Shown one piece after another: positions 749-53,669 of a DNA stretch of 64,000 bases. Every line of letters begins with the position of its first letter. Position 1 is the stretch's first letter. Both the position numbers and the translations under genes were made by a program. This DNA comes from Chiloscyllium plagiosum (Eukaryota): the NCBI RefSeq assembly GCF_004010195.1, contig NC_057718.1:41685803-41749802 (forward strand), given 5' to 3'. The notes under the pieces are model-generated. The model did not search any database. It was not told where the DNA came from and worked only from the letters and a program-made list of their open reading frames with translations.

Positions 749-1901
749 TAGATTAGAGTGGTGCTGGAAAAGCACAGCAGGTTAGACAGCATCCGAGGAG
801 CAGGAAAATCGATGTTTCGGGCAAACACCTTTCATCAGGACTGAAGGCAGGGAGCCTCCAGGGTGGAGAGGTAAATGGGAGGGGGGTGGGGCTGGGGAGA
901 AGGTAGCTCAGAGTGTGATAGGATGAAGGTGGGGGTGAAGGTGATAGGTTGGAGAGGTGGGTGGAGCGGGTAGCTGGGAAGGAAGATCGACAGGTCAAGA
1001 GGATGGTGCCAAGTTGGAAGGTTTTGCACCTCTTTGCACCACAGGGGAAAGTGCCTGGAGAAGAGAGTGGTTGGTGGGGGGGCATGGACCCAGCATCTAT
1101 AGTCCAACTCTGATCTACAGCACCTGCAGTTCTCACTTTCTCCTAGTTGACTATACTCTCCGCAAATCCAAGATGTAAAATCCAGGATTGTGGTGCACTC
1201 CTTCCTGCCATGCTCTGTATCTGGAGACCAAACCAACCAGGATTCAGCTTCAAACCCCACCTTGCTATGGAAATTACTGAGAAGTCAAAATGACACATTA
1301 ACCATAAAGCCTCATCAACATATTGTTGGTTTCTATTGAGCCACTAACATGGGGATGTAATTTATCTGGTGGGACAACAATAGCCATTGGACACTATGTC
1401 TCTATAAAAGCTGTGTCCACAACTTCCACATCACAGTGACCACTGGAGTGGGTTTTACACAAAATAATCCAACATTTCAACTCCTTCCTCACAAAAATAT
1501 TCCTGTAATTAGTGTTAAAATGGTTTATCTTGAGACGGTTATATCTCCAATAGAAGATCAGATATCAACAGTTATCAGGTCTGACCGAAAATATTGTGAA
1601 AACCCAACATCTTCACAAATATCTCGGACATTGCAGCAAAAACTCACAATTGCTGAGAAAATGTTGGAGACATCCTCTCTGGCAGTGCCTTCCTGAGTTT
1701 GACGGAGGGAGGGACAGACCATCTCCTCAAACATGACTGAAGGTCGTCATTGATGGTGATGGAGAGGTCCAGGAAGGGGAGGGAGGTGTCAGAGATGGTC
1801 CAGGTAAATTTAAGGTCAAGGTGGAATGTGTTGGTGAAGTTGATGAACTGCTCAACTTCTCACGAGGTGGCACCGATGCAGTTATCAGTGTAGCTTTTGC
1901 T
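749..1901 (-). mobile_element. Penelope-like element remnant (pLTR with hammerhead motif plus RT fragment) inserted at the end of Gypsy pol
   Basis: The minus strand at ~1745-1893 translates to YTDNCIGATS/EVEQFINFTNTFHLDLKFTWTISDTSLPFLDLSITI, the PLE RT YIDD region and FLD motif. Positions 749-845 are the pLTR end containing CTGATGA...GAAA. The flanks form a 14-bp direct repeat with 1 mismatch: AGAAATTAAGAGTC (735-748) and AGAAATTAATAGTC (1902-1915). The middle (~1150-1700) is unassigned. Confidence 0.8.
807..842 (-). ncRNA. Minimal hammerhead ribozyme motif (degenerate)
   Basis: The minus strand reads AGUC CUGAUGA AAGGUGUUUGCCC GAAA CA UC GAUU. The core boxes are intact and stem I is AGUC/GAUU. 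Stem II is weakened and the ACGU palindrome has become ACAU. Confidence 0.6.
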
Positions 1902-2049
1902 AGAAATTAATAGTCCCAGTTAGAACTGAAATGATAATACTGACCGAGGCTCGGGAAATGAATGTGTGTGAGTTCTTGTGTATTTGATTTTTAAAAACAA
2001 TTTCCTTTGTAATGATATGCGAATGAATCTAGTTTCATTTACCTTGTGG

Positions 2050-3215
2050 GGGAAGTGAAACCCCCTAAATAATCATAGTTAAAAATCACACAACACCAGG
2101 TTATAGTCCAACAGGTTTAATTGGAAGCACACTAGCTTTCGGAGCGACGCTCCTTTATCAGGTGATTGATGAAGGAGCGTCGCTCCGAAAGCTAGTGTGC
2201 TTCCAATTAAACCTGTTGGACTATAACCTGGTGTTGTGTGATTTTTAACTTTGTACACCCCAGTCCAACACCGGCATCTCCAAATCATAAATAATCATAG
2301 ATATATTTAAACTTTGCTTCAACATGTGTTTTTTTTTAATTAAGCGAGGTCTGTTACAACTGAGAGAGGAAGGTAGATGTAAATTCACTTGCTGTCTGCT
2401 AAAGTCCTGTATGGGACTGATGGAATGTTGCACCTGTAGAGGTGTGTCAGTGAAATTTCAAAGAAAGAAAGAGAAGCGTAACAAGGTGACATAATGAGGA
2501 AGCTGTCTATCTCCCCACTTACAGCATAAAGCTATCTCTTGCAGAAGTTGTGTGTTTTGGCCTCCCATGAAAATATGAGAAAAAGGGTTTAAAACCAACT
2601 ACAACTCTAATCTGTTGGTGGCCTGATGTTCCAGAGTGATGTGAAGGTTATAACTCTGAGAATAGTCATTTAAGTACTCTGTACTGCAGCTAAAATGAAT
2701 AGTAAGTATTCTCACTACTCTGATTGCTGCCAGCAAATCACATTTGAAAGGAATCAGAAAAGAAGAGTTTCAATCAATATAAAAAGGCAAGAATCTTGAA
2801 ATTGATTGTTGAACGATCAACATCAACTCTACCAGTAACATCCAGTTCAACAATTGCAATGTTCAAATAATCATGCCTCGTGGGAAAAATTAAAACTGAT
2901 CTTTATATATTTTTGTTAAACCTTTTCTCTTTGGATTCATTTCTTATTTCTAATCTATGTGCATATTTGTTGTGTTACTATTTCTTCTCAAGTTTTGTAA
3001 CTCATAAATTTACAACAAACTGATTAAGTTGCCTCCCTTTTAAAACATAAATTCATTTGGGTCTGAGGAAAAGGTATCCACAAGGGAAGGGATCCTTTCA
3101 AATTAACTTTGTTGTGATCAATTGGAGGGCAGATGAACAACTAGGGGGAGTCAGTTTACCCCTCCTCACCAAGAAGCTGAATAGTTTCAAGTATCCCACA
3201 TGGAACCATAAGAAA
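2050..3215 (+). mobile_element. Probable 3' LTR of the Gypsy-type element (interrupted by a PLE mini-insertion)
   Basis: It follows the pol remnant and a purine tract (GTGGGGGAAG, ~2046-2055). It is non-coding and ends near CCCCTCCTCACC...CCATAA. Boundaries are approximate. Confidence 0.45.
2077..2287. mobile_element. Palindromic PLE pLTR mini-insertion with two hammerhead motifs
   Basis: Inverted arms at 2077-2160 and 2167-2250 (84 bp each, 1 mismatch, 6-nt loop GGTGAT) are followed by a 37-nt tail at 2251-2287. The exact 13-bp TSD TAAATAATCATAG lies at 2066-2078 and 2288-2300. Confidence 0.9.
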
Positions 3216-3451
3216 AGTGGGGAATCTCATTGGGGGACTGAAAGTGATGTCACACTGTTCAGATCTTGTCTGCTTCCAGCCTTGACTGCAGCATGGGAAC
3301 AGCTTATATGACTCCACCTTGAATCCTCAATGAAGAACACAGTGAGCAGTAACATTAGCAGCAGCAAAAGCAACACATACACCAACTATTTCTCCTCAGC
3401 CATGTCGACAGAATAATGGATGCTCTGTCCCCAGCACAGATTCTGCAATGG

Positions 3452-3565
3452 AGAATCAGCTGTCTTGATAAGTCTAAGTACTGGTGCCATATTAGGCTTA
3501 GACTTTCATGTCCAGTCATTGCAGAGATCAGCAACCTCCTGAAACAAGACTTCTATCCCAGTGGA
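3452..3565 (+). mobile_element. PIF/Harbinger transposase N-terminal remnant
   Basis: It translates to RISCLDKSKYWCHIRLRLSCPVIAEISNLLKQDFYPSG, which resembles the HARBI1-like N-terminal segment S.LD.SE..C.RRLRLSR..I.EIC.LL..DL. Confidence 0.55.
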
Positions 3566-6500
3566 CAAAGAGGTTGCGTCCATTAAGGTGTTTTCCACTA
3601 AAGGGGCCATCTTTGTTTTCTGCCTCTTCATGGACTTTTGTGTCAGTCCCACTATGAGGACAGAAAGTAGAGTTATGTGCCTGATTAATAGAATATTTGA
3701 ACAAGAGAGAATGGTACTTGTGTAGGGAGACTGCAGGTTTGGGTGCAAGATGACAGAAAACTGAAGGTTGGCTGTTTACATGGGAAGTGGTTGGAGAAAG
3801 AGGAAGGAGTGGGACTGCAAAGTGTGTTGGTTAGAGCTGCAATCTGGAAAAGAATCAAAGTGTAGCTGTTAGCACCTGATAATGTTATGTCACTCAACCT
3901 TCCAGTCCTTATTCGGTCTTTGAAACCTTGGGGAACTGTATCTGGGTACAAGTGACCACATTCCAGCTACTCACTTTCTTGATCACATCTATCTATGTCT
4001 ACCTTATCTAAGAGTCTTGTCATTTCCTCCCGTCCAGGGAAGCAATACTTTATGTCAAGCTCTTGGATCCTGCAGCAGGATGTTCCAGAGACCTAGGGAC
4101 CAGCCTTCCCATAATTCCTTTTCATTCCTGTGGTTGCTGAAGCCTCAGAAAGAAATGATAGGCTCTCCCTTTGCTCCCTTCAACTAGAAAATGCTATATT
4201 TGACAGAGTATGGATTCCCTAACCCACTGCCCAACAGCCCTAATGCAACAGGGTCAATTTCAATAAATTTTGACCTTTAGTATTTAGTGGATCAGTGAAG
4301 TCCTTCAACACATTTGTACCTGGAGAGTAACTTTGCACCTACTCCACTGTAAAATTTTTGGAAATTGCTGAATTGAAATGCAATGATTGCAAAGTTTACA
4401 TTTTCTTCTTGATTAGTAAAAGGAACTACAAAAGCTGGTAATTCACATTTACACATGTATATAATTGGCATTTGTAGAATAAAATGAGATGTTATTGTTT
4501 TGACTAGTATTAAGAATTGAATGATAACTAAACATTTAAATAGGATCTTGCATCTTTTCTTTTGATTTCACTAAAATGTACGATTATCTACCTAAGTTTC
4601 TAGTTACATTATATATTTCATAAAAATGTTGCTATTACTTATCTGAATTCACCATTTGCAAAACTGATCCACAGACTTCAGTGGATAGTTGTTTCTTACA
4701 GACATATCATTGTTCTATAATTAAATAACTTCATCTGGTGTACAGTTGCATTTCATTATGCAATACTGAAGCTAAAAATTGTACACCACAAGACAAGTTT
4801 GCCCTATTCTGAAGTATCCTATTATATGTAAGAATAAGAGTTTGCCATGTGTATTCTTAGAAATGTTGCAAGCTACAATATGGACAGAGACCTGATTAGT
4901 CTCCCTCAGTGTTTATCCTCCATACTGTGAGAAAATAAATTCTAGTCAAAATGATCTACTCTGTTTCTTTTAACACCTTTGCCCTTATCCGTGCACCAGT
5001 TATGATCTTGAATGTTGACAGAGTTTCTACTCCAAGCACCTTTTCCCTATGTTCAACAAATGTGAAAGATGCCTGTGATTTCCACATGGCTTCACTCATC
5101 CTACACCCTACACCATTAGTATTAATGTGGAAATCAATTAATGAACACTAAAAGTTTGAGTAAACAGAGGGTTTGAATCCTATAAATGATTGAATGCTGG
5201 AACCAAATGCTGAGCTTCTGCAGCCACTGCACTGTTACAGTATGTGTATGACAAAAATGGTTAATAGATCAAACTCAGTCAATACACGTTTTTGAATGCA
5301 ATTGACCAGAATTACAAATACATTTTGTGAAATCGGTTACACAACCCAAGTCTTCATAGCATAACAACATATATAAGTACTTAGTGTGACAGTAAAAACA
5401 GATTTGGCTGTTTAAGATGAAATACTGATGCTTTGGTCATTTCAGCTGGTAGTCTACATGAAGATTGCCATTGCAGTAGTTTTCTATATGTACAATATTA
5501 ATCTATAGTCAATGCAGAAGAAAACAAAGCTCTGAATGAAATTTGCATTAGTAAGTTATTATTGTCATGGGCAGAATATATGTGTTCCCTTTACTGCTCA
5601 TGTTTCAAAGTCTTTTTTACTAATCAAAGGGGTGGTGATGTTAATTCCATACCCAATGTTGTGGGTTTAGTACCTTGAGTGTTTGAGACAGCTAGCATTT
5701 GTTTGACCAATTCAATTTAATCATACATTTTTGAATAGTTTCAAAAAAGGATATTGATTCAACATCAGACTGAAATATTTCTTATATTTCCTCTTAATTA
5801 GGAGCGTGGCTTCGCATCTACAAATGGAGGCAAGTGACCTTTAGGTAACCATCTTTTGAAGCTTTTTGTGTTTGTTTACAAATATAAAGGTCTGACTGAA
5901 AGTTCATACCATACTGTGGCATGACTTTCTTTTATTTACCAAAGTGGCTCAATTTCTCGTATAATTTAAATGTGATTAAATATTTCCCTTACAGATTCTG
6001 CTTAATTTCCCAGCTGTCTTCACTCTTCTTGAACCATCACTATCAACCATGTAGTAGAGGCACCAATGCTGATCTGTAATCATGTCATAAGAAAGGTGAT
6101 AAAGCTCAAAAGCTTCTATTTCTATCCTTCACTGTTTCAAAAGTACTTTTAAGCTCCATCATTCAATGACTCCATGCCATCATATGTTCAACACAAATAT
6201 AACAATGAAACCTTTTTCAAGTTTATATTCCTGAAGTCACCAGAGTAGTGTTTGCTCAAGAACTTTTGAGGTGGCCCCAATGGGATCTTGAGCTACATTG
6301 CTGGTTTATCCTTCAGTTATGAAAAACATGTCATCTTGGTCAATGCAACACCAGGAGTAGCTGTCCAAAGACTTACTGAACAATCAGTTGTCATCTAAAA
6401 TATATGGTGGTATACATTTACAAGTTTATGTGGCATTTGGTGGCTAGACCTTCAACTATATCAACAAATTATTTGGGAATAACCACAGCATTGATCTTGA

Positions 6501-6739
6501 TTTAAAATGTTACTTAAAGGAATGCTAACTATTTCAGCTTCCCTGTTTGTTGGCCACTGTGAAAAGGACCTCTGAAACATATGACGAGGACATTCCGGGA
6601 TTTTAATCAAGGTTTTGTCAACACTAAAGCAACATTTATTCCGAAAGTTCCCTGAGGATTGAACCGAAAAATGTGGTTAGCATGTTATTTACGCCATCAG
6701 CCCATAACTTAAGAGTATGCACGGACAGGGGAAATGAAT

Positions 6740-7105
6740 GACCAGCAGGCAGTCAATACGATATAGGCAAGATATAGGCCCGTGAGTACCTGTCATTCTG
6801 TAACCTGCGCTCTGTTCTAAATACTGATGAAAGCGATGGTCCACCTGGAACATGCAGCCAAAGCAAAATCTACAGCACATCAACCACAAACAAAGAAGAC
6901 TGCAAAAGCAATGTCCATTGTAGATTTAACTGTTGTGAGAACAGACAAGCATTCCTGCAACTTCTGCTGTGGACCCAGGCTGCTATGTTGCTTCCCTGAT
7001 GCTAGGGTCTAGGATGTCACTGGACAGCAGCAGAGCACCCTGAGGTGGGAAGCTGAGCAGCTAACAGTATCCATGCCAGCATCAATGATTGGTAGCAAGA
7101 GATCA
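6740..7105 (+). mobile_element. CR1 LINE ORF1 (SGNH esterase) remnant
   Basis: KKTAKAMSIVDLTVVRTDKHSCNFCCGPRLLCCFPDARV*DVT...LRWEAEQ is a decayed form of the CR1 ORF1 motif AIVIGDSIVRGTDRRFC...MVCCLPGARVKDV. Confidence 0.7.
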
Positions 7106-7322
7106 CTGAAGCTTTGTGCCTTCCCTCAACAGGACAAACTGATGACAAGGATGAAAAATTTCAAATGATCGCAATGTAGGTTTGTTGGCAAGTAAACTCT
7201 GATTGGCCAAGGCATTGCCATGGAAAAAGCAATGGGGAACTACAGGCTCCTAAGACTCCACGTGATCTCTGGATTGATCCCCATGCCACATGCTAGTGAG
7301 TCCAGAAATAGAAGGGTTGAAT

Positions 7323-10010
7323 TATAGAGTCTTCAAGATGCCCAGCACGAAACAGACCCTTCAGTCCAACTCATCCATGCCATCCAGATATCCCAACCTA
7401 ATCTAGTCCCATTTGCCAGCACTTGGCCCATATAGATCTAAACCCTTCCTCTTCATATACCAATTCAGATGCCTTTTAAATGTTGTAATTGTACCAGCCT
7501 CCATCACTTCCTGTGGTATCTCATTCTACACACACACCACCCTCTGCGTGAAAACGTTGCCCCTTAGATCTCTTTTAAATCTTTCCCCTTTCATCCTAAA
7601 CCAGTGCTCTTTAGTTCTGGACTCCCCTAATTCAGTGAAAAGACTTTGTCTATTTCACATATCCACACCCATCATGATTTTATTAACTTCGATAAGGTCA
7701 CCCCTCAGCCTCAGATGTTCCAGGGAAAATAACCCCAGCCTATTCAGCTTTCCCTATTGCTCAAACCCTCCAACCCTGGCAACATCCTTGTAAATCCTTT
7801 CTGAACCCATTCAAGTTTTGCAAACATCCTTCCTAAAGGAGGGAGACCAGAATTGCATGCAGTATTCCAAAAATGGCCTGTACAGCTGCAACATGATTTC
7901 CCAACTCCATGCTCAATGTTCTGACCAACATTGAACGCATACCAAATACCTTTTTCACTATCCTATCTACCTGAGACTCTACTTTCAAAGAAATATGAAC
8001 CTACACTCCAGGGTCTCTTTGTTCAGCAACAGTCTCTAGGATCTTCCCATTAAGCGTATAAATTCTATTATGGTTTGCCTTTCTAAATGTCTGCATTTCA
8101 CATTTGTCTAAATTAAATTTCATCTGCCACTCCATGGCCCATTTGCCCATCCATCAAGATCCCATTGTACTCTAAGGTAACCTTCTTCGCTGTCCATTAT
8201 ACCTCCAATTTTGGTGTCATGTATAAAACTTACTAACCATACCACCTATGTTCATATCCAAATCATTTATATAAATTATAAAAGGCAGTAGACCCAGCAC
8301 CGGTCCTTGTGGCATTCCATTGGTCACAGGCAACACTCCACCACCACCTTCGAGGTCTTCTACCTTCAAACCAATTCTATATCCAAATGGCTAGTTAGCC
8401 CTTTATTCCATTTGATCTAACCTTGCTAACCAGTCTACCATGAGGAACCTTGTCAAACTGAAGCCTGACTGAAGTCTATTTAGATCACATCAACCACTCT
8501 GCCCTCTTCAGTCCTCTTCATTACTTCTTCAAAAAACTGAATCAAGTTAGTGAGACATGATGTCCCATGCATAAAACCATGTTGATTATCTCTAATCAGT
8601 CCTTGCTTTTCCAAATACATGTATATCCTGTCCTTCGGAATCTTTTAATCTTTTCTGAACCCTTTCAAGTTTCACAACATATTTCCAATAGGAAGGAGAC
8701 CAGAATTACACGAGGCCTAACCAATGTCCTGTACAGCTGCAACATGACCTCCCAACTCCTGTACTCAATACTCTGACCAATAAAGGAAAACATACCAAAT
8801 GCCTTCTTCACTATCCTATCTACCTACAATTCTACTTTCATGGAGCTATGAACTTGTACTCAAAGGTCTCTTTGTTCAGTAACATTCCCCAGGACCTTAC
8901 CATTAAGTGTAAAAGTCCTGCTAAGATTTGCTTTCACAAAATGCTGCTCCTCACATCTATTTAAATTAAACTCTAACTGCCACTCCTCAGCCCATTGGCC
9001 CATCTGATCAAGATCCCATTGTAATCTGAGTAACCTACTTGCTGTCCACTACACCTCCAATGTTGGTGTCATCTGCAAACCTACTAACTGTACCTCTTAT
9101 GCTCACATCCAAACCATTTATATAAATGATGAAAAGTAGTGGACCCCACCGATCCTTGCGGCACTCCACTGGTCACAGTCTCCAGTCTGAAAGACAACCC
9201 TCCATCACCTCCCTCTGTCTTCTACCTTTGAGCCAGTTCTGTATCCAAATGGCTAGTTCTCCCTGTATTCCATGAGATCTAACCTTGCTAATCAGTCTCC
9301 CGTGGGGAATATTGTCGAATGTCTTACTGAAGTCCACAAAGATCACATCCACCGCTATGCCCTCATCAATCCTCTTTGTTACTTCTTCAAAAAATTCAAT
9401 CAAGTTTTTGAGACATGATTTCCCATGCACAAAGCCATGTTGACTATCCCTAATCAGTCCTTGCCTTTCCAAATACATGTACATCCTGTCCCTCAGGATT
9501 CTCTCCAACAACTTGCCCACCACCGACGTCAGGCTCACTGGTCTATAGTTCCCTGGCTTGTCCTTACCACCTTTCTTAAACAGTGGCACCACGTTAGCCA
9601 ACCTCCAGTCTTCCGGCACCTCACCTGTGACTATCGATGATACAAATATCTCAGCAAGAGGCCCAGCAATCACTTCCCTAGCTGCGCAAAGAATTCTAAA
9701 GTACACCTGATCAGGTCCTGGGGATTTATCCACTTGTGTGTATTTCAAGATATCCAGCACTTCCTCTTTTGTAATATGGACATTTTTCAAGATGTCACCA
9801 ACTATTTCCCTACATTCTATATCTTCCATATCTTTTCCACAATAAATACTGATGCAAAACACTCATTTAGTATCTCCCCATCTCCTGCGACTCCACACAA
9901 AGACTGCCTTGCTGATGCTTGAGGGACCCTATTCTCTCCCTAGTTACCGTTTTGTCCTTATTGTGTTTGTAAAAACCCTTTGAATTCTATCTGCCAAAGC
10001 TATCTCATAT
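7323..10010 (-). mobile_element. CR1/HER1-type LINE, 5'-truncated, with internal ~855-bp duplication
   Basis: ORF 9173-9862 has DKSPGPDQ, VPEDWRLANVVPLFKKG, NYRPVSLTSVVGK, QHGF..GKSC and DFSKTFD. GVPQGS lies at ~9150-9170 and FADD at ~9066-9080. The CR1 3' UTR is at 7323-7450. Confidence 0.93.
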
Positions 10011-10029
10011 TAAGAAAATTAAGAAAAAT

Positions 10030-12510
10030 CACTATAGATTTATTAAGGAAAAATCCTGTTTCGCTAACTTATCAGTGTAGTTTTTTGAGAGAGTAGTGAA
10101 GATTAATGAGGATAATACCGTTAATGTGACATAAATGGACTTCAAATGATATCCGATATACGAACATGGAACAGGAGTAGGCCATTCAACCTGCCACTCT
10201 TTTCAATAAGATCATTTGATCGAATAATAATCTCAAATCCACATTTCTGTCAGATTTTGATAACCTTTCACCCCCATTGCTTAAAAATAATCTATTCCCC
10301 TCTGCTTTAAAAGTATTGAAGAAAACTGCTTTGAAGCAAGAAACTTCCAAAGGTCCTTAACTCTCCAAGAGAAGAATAAAATCCAATTAATCTCTGTTTT
10401 AAATGGGTGGCTTCTGAGTTTTAAATCATAACTCATCATTCTTGATTCTCCTATAAGCGAAACTGTCCTCTTGACACTTAACCCTGTCAAGACCTTGTAG
10501 AATTTTGTATGTTTCATTGAAGTCTCTTCTATTCTTCTAAAGTCCAGTAGATACAAGGCTAGCCTGTGGAACATTTCCTCATGAGACCCAAGCTCATTTC
10601 AGCTATTAGGTTGCTAAACCTCCTCTGAAGTCTTTTGAAACATTATGAAGAATGTATGTTTCATAACATGACCAAGAATGTAAAGAGTATTCCAAATGTA
10701 GTCTCACCAGTGTCCTTATAATTGAAGCAAAACCTTCTTACCTTGGTATTCCACTCTCATAGAGTCATTGAATCATAGAGTCATAGAGTTATACAGCATG
10801 GAAACAGACCATTTGGACCAACTTGTCCGTACCAACTAGATATCCAATTTCCCAACACTTGGCCCATATCCCTCTAATCCCTTCCTATTCCTGTACCCAT
10901 TCAGATGTCTTTTAAATGTTGTAATTGCACCCGCCTCTACCACCTCCTCTAGTAGCTTATTCCATATATGCACTACCCTCTGTAGGAAAATGTTATCCCT
11001 CAGGTCCCTTTTAAGTCTTACCTCCCTCACCCTAAACCTATGCCCTCAAGTTTGGGACTCACCTACCCTCAACAAAAGACCTTGGCTATTCACCATATCC
11101 ATGCCTCTCATGACCTTCCATTAAATGATACTGTTCTATTTGTATTCCTCATTACTTACATCTTAACCTTCTGTAATTCATGCACTTAGACCCCAGGTCA
11201 ATTTGCATCTTGTAAAGTACATCCTGCATGAATACAGAGAGAGTTCATGGAATAAAAGGATAATAGCAACATGGATACAAAGTTGGCTTGAGTGATAGAA
11301 AATAAAAAGTAGTTGTGAACAGTTGTGTCCTGACTTGAGGGATATTTGTCGTGGAATTCCACAATGCTTCGTGTTAGGATTGCTGTTCTTCCTGATATTT
11401 ATTAATGACCAGACCTTGGTGTACAGGCACACTTTGAAAATTCACATCTAATTCAAAATTTGGATATGGTGACTCATGAGGAGGATGGTGTAGAAATTTA
11501 AAATGACACAGACGGAGTGGCAGAATGAGCCGACAATAATATGAAATTTTAACAGAGAAATGTGAAATGAAATGTTGGTAGAAAAAACACAGAAAGACAA
11601 TATAAAAGTCAGCATGCAATGATAAAAGCAGCAGCGGATCAGAGGGACTTAGTTATATACCTAAGGAGAAGTTTGATTAGCTGAGAATTCTTTCACTGGA
11701 TTGTAGGAGATTGCGGGGTGACCTTATAGAGAATTATGAGGTGAATAGCAAAGGTATTTTCCCTAGTGTTGGGGAGTTCAAAACTAGAGGGCATAATTTT
11801 ATGGTGAGAAGAGAAAGATTTAATAGGGACATAAGGAACAAATTTTTCACACAGAGGGTGGTTCTTAAATGGAATGAACTGAAGCGGTAGGTGCAGGTAC
11901 ATTTGGACAGGTACATGAATAGGAGTTAGAAAGGATGCAGAAAAGATTCCCAAGCATGGTTCCTGGGATAGAGGATTTAAGTTACATAGAAAGATTGGTG
12001 AACATAAGTAATAAGAGCAGGAATAGGCCAGTCAGCTGCTCAACACTGCCTTCCATTCTATAAGATCATGGATGATCTACATAAGGCCTTAACTCCTCTT
12101 TCAGAGTTACTTATACCCCTCAATTCCTCAAACTGTCAGAAATCTATCTACCTCCTCTAAATATTTTCAGTGATCAAACCTCCACAAATCTTTGGGGTAG
12201 AGATTTCTAGATATTCATTACACCCCAGAAGAAGACATCCCTTTGTATCTCAGTTTAAATGAATGTCCCCTTATTCTGTAACTCTGTCCCTTAGTTTGAG
12301 ATTCTCCAAATAGTGTAAACATTTTCTCAACAGCTAAACTATCAAGCCCTCTCAGAATACAGTATGTTTAAAAAAGGTCACCAGTCATACTTTGAATCTC
12401 TAATGAATAATGGCCTAACCTGTTTAGCCTGACTTGATAAATCAACTATTTCATCATAGGAATTGGCCTCATGAATCTGTTTTGAACTGCCTCCAATCTC
12501 AGTTTCTATG
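10030..12510. mobile_element. Cluster of older CR1 fragments in both orientations
   Basis: It contains repeated CR1 ORF2 C-terminal and 3' UTR motifs. Examples are ORF 10836-11030 (FLQRVVHIWNKLLEEVVEAGAITTFKRHL) with a (CATAGAGT)n tail at ~10758-10790, and ORF 10281-10574 (FFSWRVKDLW). Confidence 0.8.
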
Positions 12511-12519
12511 TTTCATCTT

Positions 12520-13400
12520 TCTGTGTCCATCACATCCTTTCTTTGCCTGCACAAGTTGCACAGGGTACAGCATCTAGGATTATGCAGCACAATTTGCCTT
12601 ATGCAAGACACGTCCAAACTGATCCAAGCATTGGGACATCACCTTCAGGGCACCAATATCATGTTCCACCATTGCCCTTGTTGAAAAATTAACTACATTG
12701 TAGTGTGCTCCACCTTAGGGGCAAGGGGATACAAAAGAGAGTTATCTGCCATTGTTACAGAAGGTATCCCTTGTCGCCCACTAACCATCCCTGTAAGGCA
12801 TCCACTTTTGAAATGAAGCAATAACCAGAGAGATTTTCAGTGATATTAGCATAATGGCAGTTTCCAGAGTACCTGGCACAAGCTTCTAATAGTAGGTACC
12901 AATGATTGCTCATGACTTGTACATTGATGGAAAGGAACCCTTTCTGTTCATGGAGTCAGTGCATTATGATTTGACGTGTACAGACCATAGTGCTGTGCAC
13001 CTGGGAGAAACCTAATACCCAGGCTGCAGCTCCAAAGTCATCACAGAAAAATGACATGACGTGATGGGATCTACATTGGCAATAGCTTTGACACATTTGT
13101 AGGTTGAGGATTAATAGAACACACACAAGTCTCAAGTGGAGTCTTGGAAGCAGAGTCTGTTGCATAAATATTTAGCACAGCTGTTAACTTGATGGCCAGA
13201 GTGATAGGATGGCCATTTACCCATTCAGTCAGAGGTCCCAATCCAGCAGTTACCATAGTTCAGTGACCTTGGACATCTTCTGGTTGAGTGACACTACACC
13301 TTGCTCATCTGGACAAAATGCCAATCTGCTGGTAGATGCGGGACCTCTTGTACATCCTGTGAATCCTGAGGGACCTTCTGCAGCAGCGTTTTCACATTGA
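12520..13400 (-). mobile_element. PIF/Harbinger (HARBI1-like) DDE transposase pseudogene
   Basis: Minus-strand pieces occur in the expected order: GHPITLAIKLTAVLNIYATDS (LPVA.K...L.FYATGS), LGFSQVHSTMVCT (GFP.V.G.IDCTH), NRKG..SINVQV, CARYSGNCH (ARFPGS.HD), GWLVGDKGY and STRAMVEHDIGALK (TR..VE..IG.LK). There are multiple stops and frameshifts. Confidence 0.85.
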
Positions 13401-14634
13401 TGCCATTCAGAAGCAACAGGATGTTAATGGTCCTGAGCTTGCTGGAACATCTATTCCTTCTCAACCTCTCTGTAACTTTATATCACCTTGACCACAGAGA
13501 CAATGACCCCCACTGTTCAACCCCCATTAGTGATGGTTCCAAGGAATCTGTGTTGGAAATTTCAGAAACACCAGGTCCTTACTAATGTGAGTAGTCAACA
13601 GTAACAGCACACACAAATGGTGGATTGGCTTTGTTCCCCCATATAGTGGGACATGGAGGACTTGAAATGGAGGGCCATTGATTCACTCTACACAGAGATC
13701 TTATTCAGATGAATGCACTACAATCCACGAGGTGCAAACTCAGAACGAGTTTGTAAGTGCTATAGGATTACTGATATGTTGTTCTCCCACACCCATTCCC
13801 TCACGTCACCCAAGAAAGGTTGCATTGCATGTCAGAGATCTTGGTGAATACTTACAGTTCAAGGTGCAAGGAAATCAGTTCAGTAGCTCTGTACAATCTA
13901 TGAGACCTCAGATTATTTTTGTGAATTATTGCCCTCGGGTATCTCCTTTAATGTTGCCTGTGATCAAGCCCTCTTCACAAAGCTGCCTGTGATCAACTTG
14001 TAACGACCAATGACATGGTGAAAATTACTTCTGACCAGGATTTGTATTCCACATATTAGAAACTGCATGAATTTCACATGCAGGATATTATAATTACAGA
14101 GGTCTTTAACCTGTACTGTGTAAGTGCCTGATTGGTACAATTGCCCCTTGAAGGGCTTCACATCTCTCACAAATAGAACTTGCATACTCAGTGAGAAAAT
14201 AAAATACTTGCTCTGTTCACTTTGGATGTGGTCATAGCCATTTTCCATTTACAACGTGCCTTTACAATTTGCATGAGTATGCAAGATAATACAGATTGCA
14301 CTGTGTACAGGAAGTTGAAGGGCAGCCTGTCAATCAAGGTGTCCCACCCATGAAAAACTTCCATTTTCCTTTCTTCCAGACATTTCCTCTCACGTCCATT
14401 AGAACTGAGCTTGCAAACATTTCTACACACCTTTTGATTTATGACTTCATTAAATTGAGCCCTGGTCCTACAGCTTGTGTTTGTGCTGTCCACCTGTTGA
14501 GGTCAGGCTGCTTGTGGTCCTCGATAACACCCTTCCTGTGGTAACCCATGTCCTCCAATACATGCTAGTCTCATCCCTTTATATGTTGAGTTGCCCCTTC
14601 ACAATTATTCTCCTCTCTGCATCTAAGAATTTTA

Positions 14635-14972
14635 TTCATTTTTTTCATTCACAGGATGTGGCAGTCACTGGCTCGGCCAGCATTTATTGTCCAAATAGAG
14701 TCAAGCACATTGCTGTGGGTCTGAAGTCACATGTAGACCAGATGAAGTAAAGAAGGCAGTTTCCCTTCCTAAAAGATGTTAGTGAATGAGGTGGTTGTTT
14801 CCCAATAATCAGCAATGGTTTTATGGTCATTGTCAGATTCTTAATTCCAGATTTTTATGAAATTCAATTTTCACTGTCTGCCACAGCAGGATTCAAACCC
14901 AGGTCCCCAGAACATTACCGGATCTCTGGATGAATAGTCTAGCATTAATATCACGAGGCCATCACCTCCCTT
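14635..14972 (-). mobile_element. tRNA-derived SINE with LINE-derived 3' tail
   Basis: The minus strand starts GGGAGGTGATGGCCTCGTG (A-box-like), contains GGGTTTGAATCC (B-box-like), and ends AATAAATGCTGGCCGAGCCAGTGACTGCCACATCCTGTGAATGAAAAAA. This end resembles the LINE end at ~33990-34045. Confidence 0.7.
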
Positions 14973-17030
14973 GAAAGCATTGGAATTGACTTCCCCAACC
15001 TCCCAATCACAACAACCTCCTCTGATAAATCCCTTTGACCTTCATTAAGTTGACCAATACAATTGACTGTTGACCACCCACCTAAGTGATGGGTGACCAG
15101 ATCTCTGAATAATCTCTGTGCAGACTGACTCATTCATCCCCAGACAGGTTACATTGTAGTTGCAGGACTGACCATGGCTTGCTTCATGAACTGTCGTAAA
15201 TGGATCCTGACCTTGTCTGGCCTAAGTAGCTGAGTGACTGCGTCAAGGTCTGGACTCTGTTATAACCCAGATGCTGACCGTGAGTTACTGTGCCAGGACC
15301 ACATGAGTGAAAGCGGTTTCACTTGACTTGTCCGAGGACTACTCACCTTAGGCTCTGAGGCCTGGCCATTTGTTGAAACACATGCAGCTTATTTGCCACG
15401 TAACCACCTGGCACTTACTGCAGGTATAAATTGGGCATTGCATGGTGTCATAGCACAACATGTCTAACCACTACAAGGAGGTACATATTAAACTGTAAAG
15501 GGCTGGACACTTTTCAAGGATGATAAGTGAGAAACAAGGCTTACCCTCTCCAACCATGGCTGATTACTGAGCCTAGATACAATGCTAATCATTCTTCAAC
15601 CAGGGTGTCATGGAATGGACCATAGAGCTCTGCATGACTGGAACAGGCAGAGAATGGATGTCATGGACCCCAGAGAGGTGAGAGAGTGATAAGTGTCCTC
15701 CATAGATGAAGATGACCAGGAAGACTATCACCTTCAACATGATAGAGTGCTGCAGCATCAGGAACATCAAGTCAAGCAGGTCTTGATTGACACCAGGTTC
15801 TAGGAAATGTGAGCTGGGTGCAGTGACCACTCATTAATTGTAAATTTGTTCCTGCTCCAAAGGTAACTAGTCCCTGTTGTTTGGAGAAGTGAATCCTGCT
15901 GTTATTTGTTTTATTCTTTGCTGTTGATGGACCATATTGATTTTTCAATACTTTTTAAACATTTTCAATACTTCCCAGCTTGCAATGGTCCCACATTAAG
16001 TTCAGCAAACTTTATTTTAAGTGGTACCTTATGAATCAGCACCCTTGATAAACTAGCAAAAATTACAAATACCTCAAATACCACAAAATTTACTGTATTA
16101 TTCTGTCCCAATGATCATAGTTTTTAATTTATTTACCTCAATGTAAATATACTTGTTTAATCGAATGGACACACGAAATATCAACAGTTGATTCAATTTC
16201 GAATCAATTTCTCGTCAAATACTGTGATCTCATGAGTAGTCAGTTGAGGATGCAGGTGAGAAGACTCTCTGCCAGTAAGTTTTATTTAAGTCAAAGTTGC
16301 ATTACTATTTAAGTGAATTATGCTGTAAGTAAAGTCTAACAGTGTTGTGTATCTCCCCTGCCTTATGTTTCTGTCACTCAGTGTGTGGTTTTACATTGAT
16401 TATGTTGACTTCTTGATCAACCAGAATACTTGATCATTTGGCATGCCCCTGGTCCCATAGATAACAGAGAATAAAATCTTTGTTGTAATAAAAACGACGT
16501 TAGGCTACATTGAGCATTGGGCAAAGCACTTGCTTACACTGAGGTCTGAGGTGGGATGCCACAAAGCAGCGTAATCTGTGTGGCTTGGTAGGTAAATAGC
16601 AACAGAGTTATGAACCTGCACTTGTATTTGCTCTGAAGTGTCAATCCTGTCGTCTATGTGCCTTGAGAAGCATTTCTTTTTTGGCTCATCTCATATTCTG
16701 TGAAGGGCAATTCTTGGCTCGCAGCTCTTGACTTGGTACACAGCTAGGCTTTAAAAATGTCTCTAGCACTGGGAATTCTGGGATGTCCTGGCAATGGCAA
16801 GTATCTCTATCTCTGGTGACAGGGAGGATATGACATGCAGGGCACCATAGAAGTGTGCTTCATGGTTAATGAGATATATTTCAGGAGATAGCATGAGAAA
16901 TCTCGGTAGGCCTCACTGAGAGAGACCCTCAAAAAAACCCACCAAAATTAACACAGCCAGTTTCTGATAAAATTCAGCCAAATATTTCTAAATTTGTATC
17001 AGATTGTATTCAATCAAGTTTGACAAATTT

Positions 17031-17165
17031 ATTCACAACCACCTGATGAAGGAGCGGTGCTCTGAAAGCTAGTGTGCTTCCAATTAAACCTGTTGATCTA
17101 TAGTCTAGTGTTGTGTGATTTTTAACTTTGTACACCCGAATCCAACACCGGCATCTCTAAATTAT
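17031..17165 (+). mobile_element. Solo PLE pLTR end, same family as 2077-2287
   Basis: It is collinear with 2164-2287: CTGATGAAGGAGC..GCTC.GAAAGCTAGTGTGCTTCCAATTAAACCTGTTG...TTTGTACACCC...TCCAACACCGGCATCTC. Confidence 0.88.
17040..17074 (+). ncRNA. Minimal hammerhead ribozyme, intact core
   Basis: The sequence is CAC CUGAUGA A GGAGC GGU GCUCU GAAA GC UA^ GUG. Stem I is CAC/GUG, stem II is GGAGC/GCUCU, and a palindromic AGCU replaces helix III. The predicted cleavage site is after 17071. Confidence 0.75.
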
Positions 17166-17449
17166 CCTTATATAGTGGCCCCTTGTATCCCACAACAATT
17201 TATGTGGTTTTCAAATAACTTTTTTTTTCTAAAATATGTGGGTTACATCAAGTAAAAATTGTTTTGAGGTGAAATACGGACCATTTCAATCCAGTATCCT
17301 TGGGGGTGTAAGCTGACATTTAAAAACTATGCTCAATTTTGCACTAAATAAAACAAATTTCAACTTTCTTTCAGAGAGAAAATAAGTATGGTTGGCATGG
17401 ATAATGGAAAATTCACAGTGGGCAACATGAAGGTCTGTGCAGCATGGAT

Positions 17450-17678
17450 TTCTACTGGCTACTCCAGTTTCGTCTCACAGTCCTAAGATGTGCAGGTTAG
17501 ATGGGCTGGCTATGCTAAATTGCCCATAGTGTCCAGGAATATTCAGGTTAGGTGGATTAGTCATGGTAAATGCAGGATATGGTGGGGGTCTGGGTCTGGG
17601 TGGGCTGCTCTTTGGATGTTCAGTCCACACTTGATTTGCCAAATGAACTCTTTCTGCACTGTCGGGATTCTATGATGT
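17450..17678 (+). mobile_element. Old HE1-like V-SINE (5'-degraded)
   Basis: CTCCAGTTTCGTCTCACAGTCCTAAGATGTGCAGGTTAG...GCTAAATTGCCCATAGTG matches the central domain of the other HE1 copies. The 3' end is CR1-like (...CTGCACTGTCGGGATTCTATGAT). Confidence 0.75.
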
Positions 17679-21255: not shown

Positions 21256-21584
21256 CTGAATTGTTTTGTATCTATGGTAAGGTTTGACCTGTCTGCTCAT
21301 GAAGCTTTCTGGATACTACTTTTCATTGAGAGCATCAGTGGAGAAAAAGGTCATAAATATCCCTTTCGAACTTGAAGTAAGATTACGATGTATTATTTTC
21401 TTCAAGTACTATAATATGTAAGAGATGGTTCATTTGGAGCACTTTGAAATAAATATGAAAATGTGTTTCAATTTAATTAATTTAGTTCATAAATCATACC
21501 CAAGAATTACTTCCTCCAAGGGAAGACGTGTGAGTTGGTCTTCCTGAACTGAGGTAGCCAAAGTCGAATAAACTTTGAAGTATC

Positions 21585-21681
21585 AAAAACAGAAATTGCT
21601 GGAAAAGCTCAGCAGGTCAGGCAGCATCTGTGGAGAGAAATCAGAGTTAACATGTCAAGTCCAGTGATGTTTCCCCAGAAC
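21585..21681 (-). mobile_element. Old PLE pLTR fragment with a dead hammerhead
   Basis: The minus strand reads GTT CTGGGGA AACATCACTGGACTT GACA TGTT AAC TCTGATTTCTCTCCACAGATGCTGCCTGACCTGCTGAGCTTTTCCAGC. It has the same downstream block as the copies at 749-845 and 47040-47132. Confidence 0.65.
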
Positions 21682-21684
21682 TTC

Positions 21685-22553: not shown

Positions 22554-22834
22554 TAGATTAGATTAGATTCCCTCCAATGTGGAAACAAGTCCACACCGAC
22601 CGTCCGAAGAGTAACCCACCAGGATCCATTTCCCTTTGACTAATGCACCTAACACTATGCAATTTAGCATGGCCAATTCACCTAACCTGCACATTTTTGA
22701 ACTGTGGGAGGAAACCCACACAGACACGGGGAGAATGTGCAAACTCCACACAGACAGTCACCTGAGGCTAGAATCAAACCTGGGTCCCTGGTGCTGTGAG
22801 GCTGCAGTGCTAACTACTGAGCCACCGTGCCGCC
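22554..22834 (-). mobile_element. HE1-type V-SINE
   Basis: The minus strand starts GGCGGCACGGTGGCTCAGTAGTTAGCACTGCAGCCTCACAGCACCAGGGACCCAGGTTTGATTC (tRNA-like A and B boxes). It has the V-domain GTGTGGAGTTTGCACATTCTCCCCGTGTCTGTGTGGGTTTCCTCC and an (AATCT)n tail. Confidence 0.92.
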
Positions 22835-50230: not shown

Positions 50231-53200
50231 TTGCATTCATTCAGTGACACACATGAACTTGGAAGCAGGAAATTTACTTACCATTGCAGAATCATACTTG
50301 CAGCCACAGAAATGCCGATCTTTTCCCTGTCAAATCTCCTATCAGTATTGCTTTCCCAATCTTCCTCTTGCTTCCAACAGCCCATCTGATCCTGTCTCTC
50401 AGCTTTTGAACCACCAGATTACATGCTAGTTCTGGCACTGCACCATTTGTACCATTCCATTCTGATCCTCCTGATTGTTCTCTGCTGACAGTTTGAAACA
50501 CAGCCCAGTGGTAGGTGCTGCTACCTCTGGCTGTGTGCAACCTTAGCCTGCAAGAAAAGTGCACAATGGCAGTGCATAGTTGTTTAGCTGGAGGTATGTG
50601 CAAGCTGTGAATTGTGGCAAGCACACAAACTTGTACAAGCTTGTGTCTGAAGCTGTGAATGTAAATTGGAGGATCTGATTGATTGATTGGTGGTACATTT
50701 AGATGTACATTGCAGCTAGGTTGCAATGGTTAGCTGCTTTCACAATGTCTACTTGGTGGAGTTCCTGCTTTGCAATGGATAGAGGATTTCTTTTCTCCTT
50801 TCCATGTCCTTCATCAAGGGCCTTTGTGCTGTATCTAATTGTTTGTCAGCATGCTGATGCCACTATTATACACTATTATTCTGGTTTAGGATTTCTTTTA
50901 CAACCAGTTTTAGAGTCTGTTGGAGCCAAAAATAATCTTCCCTTTTGGAAGTGCAAGCTGAAGTTCAATAGGGCTGCTAAATTTGAGAGGTGCTCAGCTT
51001 GCACAAAGTCAAGCCCATGCTAAGGTGCACAACTGCTCAACAATGCACCACGATGCAAATTACTATCCTTTAAATCAGCAGTCAGCGTGGAGTTTATTTT
51101 TTGGCTGCATCAGAACGAATCAGCACACATTAGTCGCCCTCCAAGTTTGTCAGCAGCAGAAGCAACCAAGGGCTAAGAAGAGATGAAAGGTACTATCAAG
51201 CCATTGGCTAGCCAAAGCTTCAAATATTTACCTTCACCTGCTGAACCTGTGAGGACTCAAAACTTTCTACTAAAGGACTTCTTGACGCAAGTATCTTTGA
51301 CAGTTGGTGCCATCTCTCTCAATCTCCAAGATTGCTTCAGTGCTAAAAGGAGTTTAATAACTTGTCAAAGAGTGAAGTCTTGTGATTCAGTTGGGAACAC
51401 TTCTGCCTTTGACCTAGAAGTTCTGGATCCAGGTCCAGGTCCTGCCTGCTGTGGGCATATTTTTTAATCATCTGCTTCAGGGATGTTATTACATACCTCT
51501 GGAGCAAGTGGGACTTGAACTCAGGTCTTGTGGTTTAGAGATAGGGGCACTACCACTGCACCATAACAGCTTCTATTTGCCTGTTATAAATGATTTGTTT
51601 TTGATGTGATTCAACATGTTGACAATCAACCTACTAACATAATGTTATTAGCAGATGTAAGTGAGCACGAAGGCACGAAACAGGCCTGAGAAGGGAATCC
51701 AATGTAACAGAAAATGTCCTGTTTTTTTCAGAACTTTCAGCCTTGACTCCTGTGTGCAATCAACTAAGGTTGTAAGTATCATGGTTAAGATGGACTCTGA
51801 CATCTTCATACCATCAGGTCACGTGTTATGATAAAGTGGTGATATCATGAGCATGTCTCTTAAAGGTACACTGACCATAAGACTTAACGCAACAGTAACT
51901 ACACCCGGAAATTGTGAGCATGTGCAGTTTGCAGAAGTTCGTAATATGATTTGAAGCAGCAGAATCTCATTCCCATTCTGTGAGGGCATGAGAGTTATAT
52001 TTGCTGATTGATATTCAAACCCTCAAGACTTTAATTCAAGCATGTTTCATATTCACAGTATTAAGAAATGCACAGCTTTTAATATGAATTGCTTCAGTTC
52101 ACCTCAGCGATAGTGAGACAAAACCTGTGATTAACAGCACCTGTCTTTCCCTTTGTTGATATTTTGAAAGGAATATAAAGGTTTCTTTCCACAGTGGAAT
52201 AGTCGAAGAGGATTTTAGTTTTCCCATATGATTGAAACCTGGCTGGAAGATAAATTCATTTTATTGGTTTCCTCTAGCTTGGCTGCTGTCCACGTTATCA
52301 CAGCAAGTATCCCAGCCTTTTCCTGTTGGTTCCAAATTTAATTAAACAACTTTCTTCTCTGAGAGAGGCAAGTCACCTTTGGGATGTAAAGATAATTTTT
52401 CTTTGTATGGAACATGTAGGCTACATTAAACAATGAGGTTTTGAGCATTTCATAAGGTAACCTATTCCCCAGTGGCCTGTGGAATGCTCTACCAGAATTA
52501 ATGACTGAAGCAGAAACCACATCAAAATGTAAAGAGGAAGTTTAGATTTGAGGTGAATACGAGAGGATACAAGGAATTTGAGAATCCGGCATATGGAATT
52601 AAGATTAGTATTCATGTGGGGATAAACAGCAACACCAATGGAATTGCCTAATTTTTGAATTGTAATATCCATGCAAATTTATGTTAGGAACTCAAAAGAA
52701 ATGAATTTCTTTGCTATTTCTGGCATACATACCATGCAGACACAGCACAGGTAACCTTTTTGATGAAGAAATTTGTGTGAAAGCGATTTCCATTCAATCT
52801 TTTCAGTGAATAATTTCCTCCCCTACAACTCCTCACGTCTCTGCATCTGCACTATGATCTGCTTGCTGGTCCATCACTAACTTCATTTTAATGCATTGAA
52901 GTGACAGTCAATGGTGAAGCACATCTGAACTTCCTAGATTTGGACAGCTCAGGAAAACATGTACTTCAATGAGGAGCAGCCACTGTCAGAAAATATGATC
53001 TTTGAAAGCTTTTCCTTTTGCCCAAAGTAAGCCCCATTGAATAACTTACTTTGTAATACAACAGTTCTGCAGCTTGGCTTATTTTTCTTCAGACTTTTAT
53101 GTTTATTATGACTCCCTGAGCTAGAAAAGTGCCATCTCCCATCAATACTCACCCCTTAATCTACCTCAGAAGACACATCTTTCTGGACTGTTGTAATCAA

Positions 53201-53349
53201 AAGCTACAATATATAACAGCCTCTGAAAATAGGTGTGGAGATCACATTGCATCATGAGCTTGTTCCACCATTCTACAATAAGCAAGCCTACACTTCTGAA
53301 AGGGAGGAAGAAACTGAAAGCCATTCCACAATTACGCCAGAGCTGGGAA

Positions 53350-53540
53350 AGACACAAGAATGGCACATGGACGCCAAAATTTGATGAAATACCACTAGAG
53401 GCCTTGCTGAAGGAGGTGGAGAGAAGGTGAGATGTCACCAATCTGACGGAGGTCTTCTAAACAAAACCTGTGAAGCCATTGGGACCAGGTTACTGTAGTG
53501 ATCAATGACAGAAGTCAATCACCAAGGATATAGATCATAG
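53350..53540 (+). mobile_element. Harbinger Myb/SANT-like DNA-binding gene remnant
   Basis: WTPKFDEIPLEALLKEVERR*DV...WDQVTVVINDRSQSPR matches the trihelix Myb/SANT-like pattern R.P.F....LE.L..EV..R......W..VA..VN....PRT of Harbinger ORF2 proteins. Confidence 0.65.
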
Positions 53541-53549
53541 CAAAATATC

Positions 53550-53669
53550 GCAGGTGCTAGAAATTGGAAGTAAAAGCAGAAAGTGCTGAAACAACTCAGC
53601 AGATCTGACAACATTTGTGGAGAAAGAAAGAGAGTTAACATTTCAAGTTAAATATGACTTCTTCAGAAC
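53550..53669 (-). mobile_element. Old PLE pLTR fragment with a degenerate hammerhead
   Basis: The minus strand reads GUU CUGAAGA AGUCAUAUUUAACUU GAAA UG UU AAC, followed by the CTCCACAAATGTTGTCAGATCTGCTGAG block related to 21585-21681. Confidence 0.6.

What the first reader, a model, noticed from the sequence alone, without database searches (positions are those of the whole stretch)
749..53669. At least four PLE terminal-repeat variants, each built around a minimal hammerhead ribozyme, in one 64-kb window
Seen in sequence: eight HHR-like motifs in four sequence contexts. These are 807-842(-) and 47043-47074(+) with a GGGC/GCCC-type stem II; two at 2131-2197 plus 17040-17074 with GGAGC/GCUCC; 48923-48962(-) and 50118-50157(+) with GUUACC/GGUGAU; and 53634-53669(-) with GUU/AAC stem I, plus a dead relative at 21646-21681. 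Stems I and II differ completely between variants, while CUGANGA, GAAA and a 4-nt palindrome (ACGU or AGCU) before the UH site are kept. Established: Penelope-like elements carry minimal type I HHRs that lack helix III and are proposed to cleave as dimers. Inference: this genome holds a very large and diverse ribozyme-bearing PLE population, at a density of roughly one motif per 8 kb here, which standard annotation would miss.
Basis: partly seen in the sequence, partly recalled or inferred. Interest (0 to 1): 0.75.

Follow-up and report, generated by a model that had tools for sequence, protein, structure and literature searches.

The report
Shark Penelope stubs carrying minimal hammerheads
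These motifs are mostly decayed self-cutting-RNA sequences at the ends of four families of a known jumping gene that has left over 100,000 intact-looking copies in this shark-like genome, and the copies' end points likely record where the element's RNA starts and how it is copied, not where the ribozyme cuts.

Summary
All nine motifs lie where stated. Only 2 of 9 pass a strict minimal-hammerhead descriptor, and they come from seven insertions (two are head-to-head pairs). Each of the four families is joined elsewhere in the genome to Penelope-like RT or GIY-YIG remnants: three Neptune-type, one Poseidon-type. Whole-genome patterns give 116,583 exact-core copies (controls 0); a random 1.15 Mb sample gives 214 motifs per Mb, so the density claim holds and is conservative. 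Minimal hammerheads in PLE ends, their abundance and their variability within one genome are published (PMC4209133); the count here is over tenfold above the figures given there. Two footprints bear on mechanism. In Neptune-type families, 5' ends pile up at -6..+3 of the core, on an initiator-like hexamer, not at the cleavage site. In 69 of 75 random head-to-head pairs one arm has the roughly 35-nt tail and the other lacks it. Best reading: run-off copies from the two RT start sites on an uncleaved RNA. Cleavage and transcription start were not shown. The scan noted both footprints before on other DNA, this genome included.

The parts
750..1110 (-). Family A (Neptune-type) 3' end: Cys-linker remnant, pLTR, hammerhead, short tail form (ends +96)
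   Evidence: (peptide hit 890-1048)
807..842 (-). Family A hammerhead, decayed (stem II damaged, ACAU)
1743..1892 (-). Family A-type RT fragment upstream of the 807-842 motif on the same strand; whether it is the same insertion was not resolved
   Evidence: tblastn E 2e-18
2066..2300 (.). Family B head-to-head insertion with a 13-bp target duplication (2066 and 2288). Minus arm -7..+88, plus arm +1..+123. Both hammerheads broken and predicted to be locked in one long hairpin
17035..17165 (+). Family B solo stub (-9..+123); hammerhead at 17040-17074 passes the strict descriptor with a G-U closing pair
21583..21683 (-). Family D solo stub (-4..+95), core lost
47028..47144 (+). Family A solo stub (about -6..+90) with a 12-bp target duplication (47028 and 47133) that overlaps the initiator-like hexamer; hammerhead has G12>A
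48874..49675 (-). Family C (Poseidon-type) arm: GIY-YIG remnant, pLTR, hammerhead 48923-48962 passing the strict descriptor, short end (+80)
49676..50225 (+). Family C inverted partner arm: GIY-YIG remnant, broken hammerhead 50118-50157, long end (+111)
53533..53670 (-). Family D solo stub (-4..+134), core boxes present but stem II unpaired

Best explanation
The nine motifs are mostly decayed minimal type I hammerheads in short terminal stubs of four endonuclease-bearing Penelope-like retrotransposon families, and the stubs are likely run-off DNA copies of an uncleaved element RNA that would start a few bases before the ribozyme core. Shown: family membership, copy number, decay, 5' ends piling up at -6..+3 of C3 in families A, B and D, two preferred 3' ends about 35 nt apart, and head-to-head pairs with one long and one short arm. 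Inferred steps: (1) a master element is transcribed from an initiator that overlaps the 5' strand of hammerhead stem I (TCATTC in A, TCAGTT in D; A at -4). (2) The RT-endonuclease, probably a dimer as predicted for the anole element, nicks both target strands and primes at two internal start sites, about +90 and +125. (3) Priming at the pLTR copy near the RNA's 5' end runs off after 95-130 nt and leaves a stub; priming at the 3' pLTR copy gives longer, 5'-truncated elements. (4) When both strands prime, each uses a different start site, giving the asymmetric inverted pair. (5) The ribozyme is selected in master elements but seldom cuts the RNA that is copied; cutting about 32 nt from the cap would more likely switch the transcript off or process it later. 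Inserted copies then decay neutrally.
For: ORF links: C in the window (E 5e-51 and 1e-56); A in one insertion running RT, pLTR, hammerhead, with an inverted stub at its 5' end (L376); B (L040); D (5 of 12 long copies carry a GIY-YIG remnant 34-44% identical to A's). 5' ends in the random sample: A 75 of 183 at -6..+3 against 18 in the 40 nt upstream and 50 in the 40 nt downstream (p 5e-36 and 2e-22); D 35 of 88 (p 4e-19); B 12 of 57 (p 5e-5); C 1 of 26 (none). The pile-up holds for solo copies of subfamilies with their own upstream consensus (A 27 of 81, D 20 of 42, B 6 of 28). Exact-core loci agree (A 36 of 52 at -6..0, D 24 of 30 at -6..-1, C 0 of 28 within -9..0). No pile-up at the cut: 14 ends in a 6-nt window against 49 in 24 flanking nt, p 0.38. 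Pairs: 69 of 75 long/short in the random sample with no identity filter, 0 tail-to-tail; 142 of 151 over all loci; both window pairs fit. Where a break falls just before ATTC and the next base is a purine, it is G in 15 of 21 (p 0.005), as a copied cap would give. Two adjacent RT start sites, nicking and extension of both strands, a predicted dimer and uncleaved RNA as the main template are reported for the anole element (PMC11167929).
Against: No transcription start was observed: one single-cell RNA run gave no place where many reads begin or end, and 93% of laid reads ran on into unlike sequence. The initiator match is a recalled consensus and was not scored against background; family B fits it poorly and C shows no pile-up in the 150 nt examined. 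Local alignment and junction microhomology blur breakpoints by several bases. Some of the 15 G's belong to target duplications or to the partner arm. Young family A copies show a small bump just after the cut site (10 of 34 ends within -15..+15 fall at 0..+4, p 0.04), so a minor cleaved-template class is not excluded. The in vitro work is on a Poseidon-type element, while the pile-up is in Neptune-type families; that paper saw no difference in start site between strands. No complete pLTR-ORF-pLTR element was recovered.
Confidence: 0.62

Rival explanations
1. The 95-130-nt stubs are a self-standing non-autonomous class, SINE-like: each carries its own initiator and internal promoter, is transcribed, and is copied in trans by the PLE protein.
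For: 40 of 52 family D copies and 51 of 133 family A copies in the random sample have under 30 nt of shared upstream sequence. The stubs begin on the initiator-like hexamer and hold both start sites. The Drosophila Penelope promoter is internal (PMC2377424, passages), and pLTR sequence alone sufficed for integration in trans in a rotifer (PMC3846280, passages).
Against: All four families have long members joined to ORF remnants. 5' ends are ragged and many cut into the hexamer or the core. Junctions and flanks differ from copy to copy. No promoter test was possible.
Confidence: 0.13
2. The inverted pairs and the 5' edge come from self-priming on an antisense template, or from RT stalling at a protein or structural block just upstream of the hammerhead, with no link to the transcription start.
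For: Self-priming on an antisense template was proposed for head-to-head PLE junctions (PMC3846280, discussion passage). Pair junctions often overlap by a few palindromic bases (gaps -12..0). RT-region reads occur on both strands (passive transcription not excluded).
Against: The edge also holds in solo copies with target duplications. A structure would be expected to stop RT on its 3' side, not after it. Self-priming does not by itself explain one long and one short arm in 69 of 75 pairs.
Confidence: 0.15
3. The hammerhead cuts tandem or read-through transcripts as a dimer, and the cut or circularised RNA is the template (model of PMC4209133); the genome holds a large active ribozyme population.
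For: Cores are invariant across subfamily majority sequences while stems change on both sides. 116,583 copies keep an exact core. Weak excess of young A ends at 0..+4 after the cut (p 0.04). Two earlier scan notes on other shark genomes report arms starting at the cut (unchecked there).
Against: Ends pile up about 30 nt upstream of the cut, not at it. Only 1 same-strand adjacent pair among 366 sampled copies, against 75 head-to-head pairs, whose RNA would fold into one long hairpin. Published minimal motifs are inactive as monomers and weak as dimers (PMC4209133); the anole motif needs protein (PMC11167929).
Confidence: 0.1

Closest known systems
Minimal type I hammerheads of metazoan PLEs (Cervera and de la Pena 2014, PMC4209133)
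   Same: CUGANGA, one extra base before stem II, G10.1-C11.1, GAAA, palindromic positions 15.2/16.2, UH, short stem I, no helix III; many families per genome; mostly single motifs from truncated copies; some opposite-strand pairs.
   Different: That paper gives about 4,000 (coelacanth) and 9,000 (Xenopus) motifs and names no shark in the parts read; here 116,583 exact-core matches, by different descriptors. Stem II here is 4-6 bp. It proposes cut RNA as template; ends here do not fit that.
PAc, Poseidon element of Anolis carolinensis (Frangieh et al. 2024, PMC11167929)
   Same: Hammerhead in the pLTR, two adjacent internal RT start sites bounding a 30-40-nt tail, both strands nicked and extended, uncleaved RNA as the main template.
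   Different: That paper saw no strand difference in start site and does not report a 5' run-off class or one-long-one-short pairs in the parts read. Three of the four families here are Neptune-type.
Complex insertions of EN+ PLEs: inverted 5'-truncated pLTR and one-sided tail (Craig et al. 2021, PMC8557442; Arkhipova et al. 2013, PMC3846280)
   Same: Head-to-head inverted copy, tail at one end only, target duplication of about 9-14 bp, an Inr-like motif noted in the pLTR.
   Different: Those papers describe the layout qualitatively and ascribe it to endonuclease resolution or antisense self-priming; here it is counted (69 of 75) and tied to a sharp 5' edge.
Animal non-LTR retrozymes (Li et al. 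2026, bioRxiv 10.64898/2026.07.22.740005)
   Same: Short, non-coding, hammerhead-bearing, PLE-derived; one chondrichthyan genome was positive in that survey.
   Different: Retrozymes are head-to-tail tandem arrays; these stubs are solo or head-to-head.

Membership tests
Minimal type I hammerhead | Core boxes CUGANGA, GAAA and UH in order | tested here: met
   Subfamily majority sequences (allowing for CpG decay in old subfamilies) and whole-genome exact counts; intact with stems in only 2 of 9 window copies
Minimal type I hammerhead | Stems I and II pair, with compensatory changes | tested here: met
   D: 92% of cells paired, 3 of 9 pairs change on both sides, 0 of 500 shuffles reach the cell count. 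C: 91% paired, 1 of 9 pairs changes on both sides, one stem II position unpaired in 13 of 19 distinct rows. Stem II columns were partly fixed by the search pattern; few independent events. Stem I is only 2 bp plus a mismatch in the commonest A subfamilies
Minimal type I hammerhead | No helix III; palindromic ACGU or AGCU allowing a dimer helix | tested here: met
   5 of 9 window copies keep the exact palindrome
Minimal type I hammerhead | Self-cleavage | not testable with these tools
   No assay possible; RNA reads showed no defined ends
EN+ Penelope-like element | RT followed by C-terminal GIY-YIG upstream of the pLTR | tested here: met
   Translations. Pfam hits are weak and below gathering scores: RVT_1 E 1.6e-5 and 8.4e-4, GIY-YIG E 0.006, none for 1 of 4 peptides
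EN+ Penelope-like element | 5' truncation, inverted adjacent copy, one-sided 30-40-nt tail, target duplication | tested here: met
EN+ Penelope-like element | Complete pLTR-ORF-pLTR tandem | tested here: inconclusive
   Two candidates fetched from 150 RT matches; both incomplete and partly unread
Neptune (or Nematis) clade, families A, B, D | CX2-5CxxC linker between RT and EN (PMC8557442) | tested here: met
   A: L024/L025; B: L049 peptide, near-identical to the B-linked L040 ORF; D: L131, 1 of 12 long copies at the expected place
Neptune (or Nematis) clade, families A, B, D | RT phylogeny with reference elements | not tested
   No reference PLE proteins were fetched; Neptune over Nematis rests on the vertebrate survey in the 2026 preprint
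Penelope/Poseidon clade, family C | C-terminal GIY-YIG without the Cys linker | tested here: met
   L075 peptide runs from RT motifs to GIY-YIG with no linker motif; phylogeny not tested
Non-LTR retrozyme | Head-to-tail tandem array with a hammerhead in each unit | tested here: not met
   No such array in the window; 1 same-strand adjacent pair among 366 sampled copies

The most novel reading that the evidence does not exclude
In Neptune-type PLEs the transcription initiator is built into hammerhead stem I, so the ribozyme sits at the very cap end as a decapping off-switch, and a dimeric RT-endonuclease primes the two target strands at two different start sites in one coupled event; several hundred thousand shark stubs would be a genome-scale record of both steps.
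Probability: 0.4. Interest if true: 0.65.

Novelty: new member of a known kind. Interest (0 to 1): 0.38.

Why it matters
The class is known, so the finding as written is ordinary apart from scale: more than 116,000 exact-core motifs, an estimated 0.6-0.85 million with decayed copies, and about 3.8% of sampled bases in these terminal stubs. Its use is as a test bed for an open question. The role of the PLE hammerhead and the origin of inverted pLTRs are unresolved, and only one element has been reconstituted in vitro. The breakpoints here make sharp predictions: an RNA start about 4 nt before the core, a template that is mostly uncleaved, and one start site per strand.

Tried and rejected
Rfam scan: no hammerhead hit, only a below-threshold microRNA match to the hairpin. 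Tandem repeat scan: no retrozyme-like array. An apparent excess of 5' ends at the cleavage site in coarse bins was not significant at base resolution (p 0.38); a weak bump remains in young A copies. A relaxed descriptor (helix III allowed, U3-A8 core) found 0 hits outside families A-D in the 120 random stretches, so a fifth common family was not seen. Sequencing runs: no RNA holder listed. Laying one single-cell poly(A) run on a pLTR and on an RT region gave reads on both strands, mostly from embedded copies, and no defined ends; a second run of the same sample and one contig set laid nothing; uninformative. Search for an intact master: 150 RT matches listed, 2 fetched, both incomplete. Lower mismatch in core than in tail positions among copies (5.5% against 9.9%, non-CpG) was not used as evidence of selection after insertion, because copies were picked by a profile covering the core and subfamilies are mixed. 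A splice-acceptor reading of the 5' edge was dropped: family D has CAG at -2, but subfamily A5 has no AG there. No protein database search or fold was run.
Full report
Setting. The window is G000:C9:41685803-41749802 of a 3.56-Gb genome. I infer a shark from its repeats: CR1/L2-like remnants and a tRNA-headed SINE that I recall as HE1; earlier scan notes also call it a shark. Positions below are counted from C3 of the CUGANGA box (0).

Observation. All nine stretches are present, and profiles built from genomic relatives find these nine and no more in the window. Most are damaged. A strict descriptor (both boxes, UH, Watson-Crick 15.2/16.2, stem II of 4 or more pairs, stem I of 2 or more) passes 2 of 9, at 17043(+) and 48959(-). 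The others carry G12>A, G8>A, G5>A, loss of C3 at a junction, or an unpaired stem II. Two pairs are single head-to-head insertions, so there are seven events. The pair at 2066-2300 has a 13-bp target duplication and folds as RNA into one hairpin at -161 kcal/mol. The solo copy at 47037 has a 12-bp duplication.

Abundance. I drew 120 random 10-kb stretches (1,154,509 non-N bases), from 43 large contigs and only below length bounds known at the time (2,317 Mb). They hold 41 strict motifs, all of families A-D, against 0 in each of 10 shuffles. They hold 247 copies covering the hammerhead (A 133, B 35, C 27, D 52) and 122 partial ones: 214 per Mb, bootstrap 183-247. Scaled to the genome that is roughly 0.6-0.85 million, an extrapolation. 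Whole-genome exact patterns give A 86,254, B 16,625, C 12,442 and D 1,262, in all 116,583, with reversed controls 0; this matches the roughly 120,000 expected from the strict sample count. One 29-base variant alone occurs 12,280 times. The C and D patterns allow some unpaired positions. Stubs cover 3.8% of sampled bases.

Identity. Family C runs straight into a GIY-YIG remnant in the window on both arms, and a relative spans RT to GIY-YIG with no Cys linker (L075): Poseidon-type. Family A joins RT, a CX4CxxC linker and GIY-YIG; L376 shows an inverted stub, RT, an unread stretch, then pLTR and hammerhead. Family B joins a distinct RT and GIY-YIG (L040), with the linker seen in a near-identical peptide (L049). 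Family D is old (median 86-89% to its majority) and mostly short, but 5 of 12 long copies carry a GIY-YIG remnant and one shows the linker. A and D share their tail. The linker marks Neptune and Nematis (PMC8557442); I ran no tree. Pfam hits for these fragments are below gathering scores. Clustering gave 16 groups, some split only by CpG decay or by the search query.

Structure. Between subfamilies the stems change on both sides: in D, stem I U-A to C-G and stem II G-C to A-U (3 cells each, 29 of 30 loci aligned, one with a longer loop left out); in C, stem I G-C to C-G or U-A (5 of 19 distinct rows). These are few independent events, and the search patterns fixed part of stem II. Against: one stem II position is unpaired in the commonest C subfamily, and stem I is 2 bp plus a mismatch in the commonest A subfamilies.

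Footprint 1, the 5' edge. In the random sample (354 copies after dropping those at an edge or an N) 5' ends crowd at -6..+3: A 75 of 183, D 35 of 88, B 12 of 57, C 1 of 26. Per base in A that is 7.5, against 0.45 upstream and 1.25 downstream. It holds for solo copies of subfamilies with their own upstream majority and in loci chosen by exact core. The upstream limit falls on TCATTC in A and TCAGTT in D, which resemble the initiator consensus (recalled) and also form the 5' strand of stem I. The cut site, at +28 to +34, shows no pooled excess (p 0.38). Young A copies show a small bump there (10 of 34, p 0.04), at most a few per cent of 247 copies. G precedes ATTC in 15 of 21 purine cases (p 0.005), weakly fitting a copied cap; some of these G's belong to duplications or partner arms.

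Footprint 2, asymmetric pairs. 3' ends have two modes about 35 nt apart in all four families (A about +92 and +126). Of 75 adjacent head-to-head pairs in the random sample, 69 have one long and one short arm (p 6e-15); none is tail to tail. Over all loci with identity of 85% or more it is 142 of 151. Both window pairs fit (+88/+123 and +80/+111). Pairs hold a large share of copies (104 of 192 A copies, counting partners within 1.5 kb).

Mechanism. PMC11167929 shows for an anole element two internal RT start sites bounding the tail, nicking and extension of both strands, a predicted dimer, protein-assisted hammerhead cleavage, and uncleaved RNA as the main template. Set against that, the simplest reading is that the RNA starts at about -4, that priming at the pLTR near its 5' end runs off after 95-130 nt, and that the two target strands use the two start sites, one each. 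The transcription start, the cap, the coupling and any cleavage are inferred. RNA data did not test them. Rivals: SINE-like autonomy of the stubs (0.13), antisense self-priming or stalling (0.15), cleaved template (0.10). That these are PLE terminal stubs I hold at about 0.95; the 0.62 is for the whole mechanism.

Literature seen. PMC4209133: text parts 1-2 of 4, supplements not read. PMC11167929: parts 1-2 of 4. bioRxiv 10.64898/2026.07.22.740005: parts 1-3 of 5 and a term search, supplements closed. PMC8557442, PMC3846280, PMC2377424, PMC6155905, PMC8455134: passages only. Seven searches turned up no paper giving hammerhead counts for a shark, a 5' pile-up before the core, or a count of long/short pairs; the library lacks most subscription journals, and Repbase was not seen. 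The one-sided tail and the inverted pLTR are in print qualitatively. The scan's own notes report both footprints on other DNA of this and other shark genomes. I had measured both before looking, and those notes are not independent support. Two notes place arm starts at the cut site in other genomes; in this genome I found little of that.

Verdict. A real, correctly recognised, mostly decayed set of a published motif class; new members at unusual scale, with useful mechanistic footprints. Interest 0.38.

Noticed in passing
window 21612-21646 and 53600-53634 (- strand), family D tail: Just after the cut site, family D reads a branch-point-like stretch, a pyrimidine tract and CAG followed by ATG, like a 3' splice site; families A and D keep an ATG at the same place in the tail. 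Role unknown.
   Followed up: no
families A and D, +45..+125 of the core: The shared tail holds complementary segments that could form a hairpin and a longer-range stem around the first RT start site; a conserved protein-binding fold is possible. Not folded or tested.
   Followed up: no
L317-L345 (subfamily C3): A young Poseidon-type subfamily not present in the window has an A-G mismatch or bulged A in stem II and a different stem I; it makes up most of the 12,442 family C matches listed.
   Followed up: partly
family C loci: 6 of 28 family C copies end at -145, close to the edge of the 150-nt reference; a more distant 5' edge for the Poseidon-type family is possible but may be an alignment effect.
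   Followed up: no
window 7317-11877, 26093-26527, 37832-40111: Several decayed CR1/L2-type LINE fragments with RT and endonuclease remnants.
   Followed up: no
window 17442-17664, 22584-22834, 40059-40110, 47855-48163, 59664-59978: Five copies or parts of a tRNA-headed SINE, recalled as shark HE1; the one at 59664-59995 ends in a TGTAA repeat.
   Followed up: no
L225 and L153 (random sample): Open frames that look like retroviral envelope and integrase C-terminal fragments; seen only in passing.
   Followed up: no
window 27831-28132 and 39949-40166: Short local duplications (about 143-159-nt spacing, 93-99% identical); the second spans the 50-N gap at 40009-40058 and may be an assembly effect.
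   Followed up: no
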